From the IMG/VR virus record IMGVR_UViG_2778261696_000004, positions 1 to 31,461 of that record: a stretch of 31,461 nucleotides of DNA, one strand, 5' to 3'. The notes beneath the pieces were generated by a model that worked only from the letters and a program-made list of their open reading frames with translations, was not told the DNA's origin and ran no database searches. Position numbers and translations under genes: made by a program. This DNA comes from a virus (lineage: Duplodnaviria > Heunggongvirae > Uroviricota > Caudoviricetes). This document shows positions 27,619-27,726 of the stretch, in pieces (the first letter of the stretch is position 1; each line of letters opens with the position of its first letter).

Positions 27619-27726
27619 TTACTGTTTCCTGAGTGCTTCTATGACGCCAGCAATACCGCCTACAACTATGCCAGCAATGACAACGAGAACAATTGGATGC
27701 TTGTCAGCAAAATCCCAGAAGCCCAT
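27619..27726 (-). CDS. small membrane peptide, 35 aa (MGFWDFADKHPIVLVVIAGIVVGGIAGVIEALRKQ)
   Basis: AAGGA SD 6 nt upstream of the ATG; one TM helix; stop is 4 nt before the tRNA-Ile 5' end. Below the ORF-track cutoff. Confidence 0.45.
   Translation of the reverse strand: MGFWDFADKHPIVLVVIAGIVVGGIAGVIEALRKQ

What the first reader, a model, noticed from the sequence alone, without database searches (positions are those of the whole stretch)
27619..27726. 35-aa membrane peptide gene ending 4 nt before tRNA-Ile2
Strong SD and a clean TM helix. Such tight packing against a tRNA suggests co-transcription and processing, and a small membrane protein of unknown role next to the TerB-like gene.
Basis: seen in the sequence. 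Interest (0 to 1): 0.45.

Follow-up and report, generated by a model that had tools for sequence, protein, structure and literature searches.

The report
Phage P1 small membrane gene tciC
The 35-codon reading frame is the already annotated gene tciC of bacteriophage P1, a real small membrane protein gene made from the same transcript as the tRNA that follows it; its function is still untested, and comparison with relatives shows it is not tied to the neighbouring TerB-like gene that gave it its name.

Summary
The window is bacteriophage P1 (99.9% identical), and the ORF at 27619-27726 (minus strand) is tciC (P1_gp076, PHROG 23152), annotated in the P1 genome records deposited as AF234172/AF234173. 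It has an AAGGA Shine-Dalgarno sequence 6 nt upstream. Its ATG overlaps the tciB stop codon (UGAUG). It has a 19-residue uncharged segment, and its UAA stop lies 3 nt before tRNA-Ile2.

It is a genuine protein-coding gene:
- It is intact in 66 of 67 loci that carry a tciB relative (68 rows, including P1 and the window counted twice).
- Unannotated homologues exist in D6-like phage-plasmids, where synonymous sites are saturated (pS 0.71-0.76) and protein change is low (pN about 0.19).
- A profile built without any P1 sequence finds it as the only hit among 497 window ORFs (E 8e-8).

The tRNA junction is part of the known C1-repressed ban operon.

The new point is modest. The family occurs without tciAB (alone, or after an SPFH cassette), and tciAB occurs without tciC. 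The "tellurite/colicin accessory" label is therefore guilt by association.

CRISPRi shows tciC is dispensable for plaque formation, and its function remains untested. Verdict: already known, low interest.

The more interesting thing was seen in passing: an unannotated, covariation-supported RNA element of about 170 nt directly downstream of the tRNA, widespread in temperate phages and absent from Rfam.

The parts
27619..27726 (-). tciC coding sequence (35 aa plus TAA), a small single-pass membrane protein
   Evidence: P1_gp076, YP_006542.1; PHROG 23152, E 3.4e-27
27733..27737 (-). Shine-Dalgarno AAGGA for tciC, 6 nt before the ATG, lying inside the end of tciB
   Evidence: read from the sequence
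27726..27728 (-). tciB stop codon TGA, sharing its last base with the tciC ATG (UGAUG), an arrangement typical of translational coupling
   Evidence: the same overlap is present in all P1/P7-type loci
27616..27618 (-). 3-nt spacer (UCC) between the tciC stop and position 1 of the tRNA; inferred RNase P cleavage would fall after it
   Evidence: the gap is 3 nt in 64 of 66 loci
27540..27615 (-). trnI, tRNA-Ile2 (anticodon CAT, read as AUA after lysidine modification)
27726..27890 (-). tciB, 54-aa DUF3927 membrane protein
   Evidence: (PF13064, E 7e-31)
27890..28315 (-). tciA, 141-aa TerB-family protein
   Evidence: PF05099, E 2e-6; phrog_632
27624..28341 (-). Exchangeable cassette in the P1 lineage: homology with RCS47-type relatives breaks at 28341 and resumes at 27624, so tciA, tciB and tciC are replaced together
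27345..27525 (-). Conserved structured non-coding element between trnI and ban (side finding)
25889..27253 (-). ban, DnaB-like helicase, the downstream gene of the operon
29047..29200 (-). tRNA-Thr and tRNA-Asn, upstream members of the same operon
29853..29882 (-). P1ban promoter and C1 operator Oban (approximate; transferred from the P1 annotation across a 1-base indel)
   Evidence: the sequence ATTGCTCTAATAAATTTATTAGTGTAAT is present

Best explanation
The ORF is tciC of phage P1.

Shown:
- It is a genuine protein-coding gene under purifying selection.
- It encodes a 35-residue peptide with a short N-terminal helix (FWDFADK), a proline kink and one hydrophobic helix.

Inferred:
- From the positive-inside rule, which holds across the whole family, the N-terminus faces the periplasm and the basic C-terminus faces the cytoplasm.
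- It is transcribed only when the C1 repressor releases the ban promoter, as one RNA running dicF-like, tRNA-Asn, tRNA-Thr, tciA, tciB, tciC, tRNA-Ile2, ban.
- It is translated by ribosomes handed on from tciB through the UGAUG overlap, helped by its own AAGGA.
- RNase P cleavage at the tRNA 5' end would leave the message ending 3 nt after UAA. A terminating ribosome would cover the first bases of the tRNA, so termination and tRNA folding cannot occur at the same moment on one RNA.

Function (inferred, not shown): it is an accessory early gene whose product acts in the inner membrane by binding a larger membrane protein. It acts independently of TciA/TciB and is not their obligate subunit.

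The confidence of 0.55 is for the whole statement including function. Identity as P1 tciC and its coding status are about 0.97.
For: Identity: 99.8-99.9% to P1, with tciC annotated at these bases; PHROG 23152 full length.

Real gene:
- Intact in 66 of 67 loci with a TciB relative.
- D6-like homologues align without gaps.
- pS 0.71-0.76 against pN 0.19-0.20 for D6/pF801/Enterobacter pairs, omega about 0.09.
- A profile of the D6 clade alone finds P1 TciC at E 8e-8; the next of 497 ORFs scores 0.74.

Membrane helix and topology. The N-flank has net charge -1 and the C-flank 0 to +6 in all subclades.

Operon: promoter and operator are annotated only upstream, with no promoter or terminator between tciA and ban. 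RNA-seq papers report tciA/B/C transcripts.

Independence from tciAB:
- tciC-like alone (L070, L076).
- After the 78-aa membrane plus SPFH cassette (L075, L077).
- After an 88-aa membrane ORF (L071).
- tciAB without tciC in L068, Cyrano and Arash.

Accessory status: CRISPRi knock-down has no plaque phenotype (PMC10695390), and the region is variable (PMC9603915).
Against: - No direct evidence of the protein: the P1 virion proteome paper names TciA as detected and does not mention TciB or TciC in its main text, and I found no ribosome profiling data.
- Among the close P1-type alleles dN/dS is only 0.64 on 13 differences, so the selection signal comes from the D6 clade.
- In the P1 lineage tciC is always lost together with tciAB and is translationally coupled to tciB. 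That fits a three-protein unit at least in P1.
- Topology, RNase P processing and a membrane binding partner are inferences; none was tested.
Confidence: 0.55

Rival explanations
1. TciC is the obligate third subunit of a TciA (TerB) / TciB (DUF3927) / TciC membrane complex, as its name implies. It would help anchor or regulate the TerB protein at the membrane, giving tellurite or colicin resistance, phage exclusion or control of cell division.
For: UGAUG coupling to tciB. The three genes are replaced as one block in RCS47-type relatives, with breakpoints at 28341 and 27624. The P1 annotation makes the same proposal.
Against: Double dissociation. The tciC family is present without tciAB in D6-like, Enterobacter, Leclercia and Pantoea plasmids. 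tciAB is present without tciC in L068, Cyrano and Arash. No Ter phenotype has been reported for P1 in the papers read. None of the three proteins matches PADLOC.
Confidence: 0.2
2. TciC is a membrane-damaging peptide of the type I toxin or Kil kind. It would be silent in lysogens under C1 repression and would depolarise or arrest the host once the early operon is switched on.
For: Size, a single hydrophobic helix and a basic C-terminal tail (up to +6 in the D6 clade) resemble TisB, Ldr and Hok-type peptides (established knowledge). It sits in a repressor-controlled early operon together with a dicF-like region.
Against: No promoter-like site on the opposite strand for an antitoxin RNA. The P1-type tail is only RKQ. 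The gene is dispensable and its knock-down has no effect on plating. No sequence relationship to any known toxin family.
Confidence: 0.1
3. The act of translating up to 3 nt before the tRNA is what matters, not the peptide. Terminating ribosomes would gate folding and RNase P processing of tRNA-Ile2, and hence expression of downstream ban.
For: The stop-to-tRNA gap is 3 nt in 64 of 66 P1/P7-type loci and 4-9 nt in D6, pF801 and Enterobacter types, despite saturated synonymous divergence.
Against: The amino-acid sequence itself is conserved (pN well below pS). In Leclercia and Pantoea plasmids other genes lie between the peptide gene and the tRNA. RCS47-type phages keep the tRNA and ban without tciC, with a 27-nt gap.
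Confidence: 0.08
4. It is a chance ORF in the spacer or leader upstream of the tRNA and is not expressed as protein.
For: Short ORFs are abundant (497 of at least 20 aa in the window). RefSeq annotation of P1-like plasmids usually omits it. About half of its relatives lack it.
Against: The frame, start overlap, N-terminal motif and hydrophobic helix are kept across lineages at 42-70% nucleotide identity. The profile hit has E 8e-8, and synonymous sites are saturated while the protein is conserved.
Confidence: 0.03

Closest known systems
TciC of phage P1 (YP_006542.1, AAQ14154.1), Upf69.6 of phage P7, PHROG 23152
   Same: Identical sequence, position and neighbours; this is that gene.
   Different: Nothing differs. 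The window has no substitution in tciC or trnI relative to NC_005856.
Ter (tellurite resistance) gene clusters built around TerB
   Same: The upstream gene tciA passes the Pfam TerB threshold, and the tci names were given by this homology.
   Different: TciC has no counterpart in Ter clusters and no homologue outside P1/D6-type phage-plasmids. Its distribution is independent of the TerB gene.
Small bacterial membrane proteins that act by binding larger membrane proteins (for example AcrZ, MgrB, KdpF; from established knowledge)
   Same: Length of about 30-45 residues, one transmembrane helix, basic cytoplasmic end, and frequent omission by annotation pipelines.
   Different: No sequence relationship, and no partner is known. 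This is an analogy of mechanism, not of family.
Type I toxin peptides (TisB, Ldr, Hok; from established knowledge)
   Same: A small hydrophobic helix with charged ends.
   Different: No antisense RNA gene or long structured leader was found, the gene is translationally coupled inside an operon, and toxicity is untested.
mRNA-tRNA co-transcripts cut by RNase P (mitochondrial tRNA punctuation; the phage T4 tRNA cluster; the E. coli tRNA-tufB operon; from established knowledge)
   Same: A coding sequence abuts a tRNA with almost no spacer, so tRNA processing would define the end of the mRNA.
   Different: Processing at this junction in P1 has not been mapped in anything I could read; here it is an inference.

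Membership tests
TciC / PHROG 23152 | Full-length sequence match to the family profile | tested here: met
   E 3.4e-27, residues 1-35 on profile positions 1-35; 8 of 17 family members, including some of the D6 clade, match the same PHROG.
TciC / PHROG 23152 | Same genomic position as P1 tciC (between tciB and trnI) | tested here: met
   the window is 99.87% identical to P1 over 5.5 kb, with no difference in tciC.
Ter/TerB system accessory protein | Consistent co-occurrence with a TerB-family gene | tested here: not met
   tciC-like genes occur without tciA/tciB in L070, L071, L072, L073, L075, L076 and L077. tciAB occurs without tciC in L068, L202 and L203.
Ter/TerB system accessory protein | Contribution to tellurite or colicin resistance or phage inhibition | not testable with these tools
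   No phenotype is reported in the papers read.
Type I toxin-antitoxin toxin | Small hydrophobic membrane peptide | tested here: met
Type I toxin-antitoxin toxin | Cognate antisense RNA gene overlapping or beside the toxin gene | tested here: inconclusive
   No promoter-like site on either strand in 27000-30100, but that scan is a strict consensus search.
Type I toxin-antitoxin toxin | Toxicity on overexpression | not testable with these tools
   Needs an experiment.
tRNA-Ile2 (lysidine-modified CAU anticodon) | CAT anticodon with an Ile2-type body, not a Met or fMet body | tested here: met
   89.5% identical to the two chromosomal tRNA-Ile copies of E. coli K-12 and annotated tRNA-Ile in RefSeq. 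The P1 note gives 89% identity to ileX. The C4-G69 and C5-G68 acceptor pairs, which I recall as TilS determinants, are present in the sequence.
Known anti-phage defence systems (PADLOC) | Match to a defence-system protein model | tested here: not met
   No hit for TciA, TciB or TciC at E up to 0.1.

The most novel reading that the evidence does not exclude
TciC is not a Ter accessory. It would be one part of a conserved three-part early module of P1/D6-type phage-plasmids: a small membrane peptide with its N-terminus outside, then tRNA-Ile2, then a pseudoknotted RNA of about 170 nt. In this reading the near-zero spacing between stop codon and tRNA lets translation termination and RNase P cleavage compete. 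That competition would set the relative output of peptide, tRNA and downstream helicase.
Probability: 0.12. Interest if true: 0.45.

Novelty: already known. Interest (0 to 1): 0.15.

Why it matters
For the finding itself, little. It confirms an existing annotation in one of the best-known phages, and the gene is dispensable for plaque formation.

Three points are useful:
- Current pipelines mostly omit tciC in RefSeq P1-like plasmids, and its homologue and the adjacent tRNA are missing from the D6 record. The gene is real and should be called.
- The label "tellurite or colicin resistance accessory protein" has no support beyond adjacency, and the gene's distribution argues against it.
- This slot of the early operon is a hot spot where envelope-protein cassettes (TerB/DUF3927, or a membrane protein plus an SPFH lipoprotein) are exchanged between phage-plasmid lineages. 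That makes it a good place to look for host-envelope or exclusion functions.

The unannotated structured RNA next door may deserve its own study.

Tried and rejected
- A full HMMER search of TciC against 1.84 billion representatives found only its own cluster.
- Pfam, NCBIfam and PADLOC gave nothing meaningful for TciC; there were weak sub-threshold hits to EssA, LapA and TMEM213 only.
- The first literature search for 'tciC' was swamped by unrelated acronyms.
- The 2004 P1 genome paper is not held in the library.
- dN/dS among close P1-type alleles was uninformative: 0.64 on 13 differences.
- I considered that the opposite-strand ORF 27641-27739 might be the real feature. I rejected it: the substitution pattern fits the tciC frame, and it has no start context.
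- I considered holin or antiholin and rejected it. The gene has no lysis-gene neighbours and no family match in Pfam, PHROGs or NCBIfam, and a 35-residue single-helix peptide is smaller than the holins I know of (from memory).
- For the side finding, Rfam at gathering thresholds and at E up to 1 gave no family. Searching papers for its conserved sequence strings found nothing. The HK022 put RNA is described as about 70 nt with two stem-loops, so identity with put was not established.

Full report
**What the window is.** A 2.5-kb stretch around the finding is 99.8-99.9% identical to bacteriophage P1 (NC_005856, AF234172/3) and to P1-like phages. Over 5.5 kb the window differs from the P1 reference by six substitutions and one single-base indel, none of them in the ORF or the tRNA. 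The window's plus strand is the reverse of the P1 record.

**The observation.** On the minus strand an ATG at 27726 opens a 35-codon frame that ends with TAA at 27621-27619.
- AAGGA lies 6 nt upstream of the ATG.
- The A of the ATG is also the last base of the tciB stop codon (UGAUG).
- Residues 11-29 are uncharged and strongly hydrophobic.
- AlphaFold, given a 17-sequence family alignment, predicts a short helix (3-9), a break at Pro11 and a long helix (11-34), with mean pLDDT 92.
- Three bases separate the stop codon from the first base of a 76-nt tRNA with anticodon CAT.
- The tRNA is 89.5% identical to the two chromosomal tRNA-Ile copies of E. coli K-12. RefSeq annotates it as tRNA-Ile in P1-like plasmids, and P1 names it trnI.

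[quoted passage not shown] It is preceded by tciB and tciA and followed by trnI and ban. P7 calls it upf69.6. It matches PHROG 23152 over its full length (E 3.4e-27) and has no Pfam, NCBIfam or PADLOC family. TciA passes the Pfam TerB threshold and TciB is DUF3927.

**Is it a real gene?** Length alone says nothing, because the window holds 497 ORFs of at least 20 aa. Comparison does.
- The ORF is intact in 66 of 67 loci with a TciB relative (68 rows, including P1 and the window counted twice). These fall into three main protein alleles, and the gap to the tRNA is 3 nt in 64 of the 66.
- Between the close alleles the signal is weak: dN/dS is 0.64 for P1 against type 2, and 0.13 for type 2 against type 3, on very few changes. 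Every change inside the helix is a conservative swap of one small or non-polar residue for another.
- Phage D6 carries an unannotated 37-codon ORF in the same place, overlapping the stop of its tciB homologue. It lies 9 nt before a tRNA(CAT) that is also unannotated.
- tblastn with that peptide found a graded series in E. coli, Salmonella, Enterobacter, Leclercia and Pantoea phage-plasmids.
- A profile search of 5.8 billion proteins found 33 clusters, most on contigs of tens of kilobases up to about 95 kb, the size of these phage-plasmids.
- All members align without internal gaps to M-x-F-W-x-F-x-D-K-x-P, a hydrophobic helix with a conserved Gly, then x-A-L-R-K and a basic tail.
- Between D6, pF801-4-type and Enterobacter genes, synonymous sites are saturated (pS 0.71-0.76) while non-synonymous change is 0.19-0.20, giving omega about 0.09.
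- A profile built only from the D6 clade finds P1 TciC as the single hit among the 497 window ORFs (E 8e-8; next best 0.74).

The protein, not the DNA, is what is conserved.

A full HMMER scan of 1.84 billion representatives found nothing outside this family. It is an orphan family confined to P1/D6-type phage-plasmids of Enterobacterales.

**Expression.** The P1 annotation places the promoters P1ban and P2ban, with the C1 operator Oban, about 2.1 kb upstream. They are followed by a dicF-like region, tRNA-Asn, tRNA-Thr, tciA, tciB, tciC, trnI and ban. A consensus scan finds no promoter-like site and no terminator-like site between tciA and ban on the minus strand. The one terminator-like hairpin, at 29673-29692, belongs to the dicF-like region. 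Transcriptome papers on P1vir report tciA/B/C and trnI transcripts.

Co-transcription of tciC and the tRNA is thus part of the known ban operon. RNase P cleavage at the tRNA 5' end would leave the message ending 3 nt after UAA. A ribosome terminating there would cover the first bases of the tRNA. Both statements are inferences from established knowledge and were not tested here.

**Dispensability and variability.** A genome-wide CRISPRi screen scored tciA, tciB, tciC and trnI as non-essential for P1 plaque formation (PMC10695390). A survey of 77 P1-like phage-plasmids lists tciABC among eight variable regions and notes that nearly half of subgroup 1 lack it (PMC9603915).

My own comparison agrees. 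Among 561 PLSDB plasmids that share this region there are discrete coverage classes:
- a full match;
- a match starting inside tciB (a P7-type tciA allele);
- a match starting exactly at window 27624, which means no tciABC.

In RCS47 and Ro157c2YLVW the block 28341-27624 is replaced by a 78-aa membrane protein plus a 275-aa SPFH-type lipoprotein, and the tRNA follows after 27 nt.

**What is new: tciC is not tied to tciAB.** In the D6 lineage the tciC-like gene stays next to the tRNA while the upstream cassette varies:
- tciAB in D6 itself;
- the same 78-aa plus SPFH cassette (98-99% identical to that of RCS47) in p2_035123 and pMFDS1011657;
- nothing at all in pF801-4 and pF374-2.

Other plasmids show further arrangements:
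- An Enterobacter plasmid has an unrelated 88-aa membrane ORF upstream.
- In Leclercia a lipoprotein gene follows the peptide gene.
- In Pantoea a 59-aa membrane protein and an SPFH protein follow it.

Conversely, tciA-tciB pairs without any tciC-like ORF occur in an uncultivated viral contig (L068), in phage Cyrano and in phage Arash. This double dissociation argues that TciC is not an obligate partner of the TerB/DUF3927 pair. The "tci" label rests on adjacency only.

Against this, in the P1 lineage the three genes are always gained or lost together, and tciC is translationally coupled to tciB. A joint function in P1 is therefore not excluded.

**Most likely mechanism.** I take TciC to be a single-pass inner-membrane peptide with its acidic, aromatic N-terminus outside and its basic C-terminus inside. 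In every subclade the N-flank has net charge -1 and the C-flank 0 to +6. It would be made early after derepression and would act by binding a larger membrane protein of host or phage. It sits in a slot of the early operon where envelope-related cassettes are exchanged.

The identity and coding status are near certain. The membrane location is well supported. The topology, the processing and above all the function are inferred. Rivals, in order of my confidence:
- an obligate TciABC complex (0.2);
- a toxin-like membrane-damaging peptide (0.1);
- a role of translation itself in gating tRNA processing (0.08);
- a chance ORF (0.03).

**Seen in passing: a structured RNA.** The roughly 280-nt stretch between trnI and ban is not featureless. 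About 170 nt of it (about 27345-27525, minus strand) are conserved in P1, P7, RCS47, D6 and the D6-like plasmids. At 74-81% identity the element also occurs in lambdoid Stx phages, cdtI, mEp460, phiV10/TL-2011b-type podophages, and phages of Enterobacter, Klebsiella and Stenotrophomonas. In the 60 of these 71 phage records that were listed, it is unannotated or lies under a "hypothetical protein" call.

On 25 sequences at under 92% identity I tested a structure of five helices plus a loop-to-strand pseudoknot:

| Measure | Observed | Control |
|---|---|---|
| Cells forming a standard pair | 97.8% | 88.2% in shuffles |
| Pairs with changes on both sides | 13 of 29 | 6.7 in shuffles |
| Covariation score | 0.289 | 0.114 in shuffles (0 of 500 reach it); at most 0.059 with partners slid by 1-3 columns |

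G-U pairs favour the operon-sense strand. Rfam 15 has no match at gathering thresholds or at E up to 1.

In cdtI and a Stenotrophomonas phage the element lies directly after the repressor gene, at the start of the leftward early region. In Tyrion it lies just 5' of a small ORF. A leader RNA acting on transcription or translation of what follows is a reasonable guess. HK022 put RNA is described as a smaller element of about 70 nt with two hairpins, and I could not test any relationship. This element is outside the finding but is the most interesting thing in its neighbourhood.

**Verdict.** Interest is low. The added value is firm evidence that the gene is real, a wider and partly unannotated family, and evidence against its presumed link to TerB.

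Noticed in passing
window 27345-27525, minus strand (between trnI and ban); also L004 1478-1682 (-), L070 2715-2960 (+), L071 2712-2915 (+), L074 1490-1680 (-), L080 and L081 about 1200-1375 (+): An unannotated conserved element of about 170 nt with strong covariation support: 25 sequences, 29 pairs, 97.8% paired, 13 pairs with compensatory changes, covariation 0.289 against 0.114 in shuffles and at most 0.059 when slid. It includes a possible pseudoknot, GCACAU with AUGUGC. It is present in 71 phage records and at least 119 viral contigs: P1-like and lambdoid Stx phages, phiV10-like podophages, and Stenotrophomonas, Enterobacter and Klebsiella phages. No Rfam 15 match. It lies right after cI in cdtI and a Stenotrophomonas phage, and just 5' of a small ORF in Tyrion. 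It may be a leader or antitermination-type RNA; that is a guess.
   Followed up: partly
L004 (phage D6, MF356679) 1687-1762 and 1772-1885, minus strand: The D6 record lacks both the tRNA(CAT) and the 37-codon tciC homologue that precedes it by 9 nt. The tRNA-Ser, tRNA-Thr and tRNA-Asn features of that record are given on the strand opposite to the one ARAGORN finds.
   Followed up: yes
window 27624-28341; L005, L006, L075, L077, L073: This slot of the early operon is a cassette-exchange hot spot. tciAB(C) alternates with a 78-aa membrane protein plus a 275-aa SPFH-type lipoprotein. The SPFH cassette is 98-99% identical between the P1-lineage phage RCS47 and D6-lineage plasmids, and a 50% identical version sits in a Pantoea plasmid.
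   Followed up: partly
window 5874-5961 and 6007-6085, minus strand: Rfam finds the C4 antisense RNA (75 bits) and, 46 nt away, a match to the isrK Hfq-binding RNA family (59 bits, gathering score 50). The C4 RNA belongs to the P1 immunity region. I did not check the isrK-like neighbour against the P1 annotation.
   Followed up: no
window 29656-29757, minus strand: The region annotated 'dicF-like' in P1 ends in the only terminator-like hairpin of the operon (29673-29692, followed by a T run). Transcription from Pban therefore has to read through it to reach the tRNAs, tciABC and ban. The region does not reach the Rfam DicF gathering score. The single indel between the window and the P1 reference falls at about 29672.
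   Followed up: no
window 28699-29076 (+) against 29047-29122 (-): The annotated plp gene on the opposite strand overlaps the tRNA-Thr gene by 30 nt. The upl and plp promoters lie inside tciA, so these transcripts would be antisense to the ban operon RNA.
   Followed up: no
L068 2574-3168; L202 776-1359; L203 756-1365: TerB-like plus DUF3927 gene pairs with overlapping stop and start codons occur in unrelated phages: an AT-rich viral contig, the 108-kb phage Cyrano and the 181-kb Salmonella phage Arash. The two-gene pair is therefore the conserved unit.
   Followed up: partly
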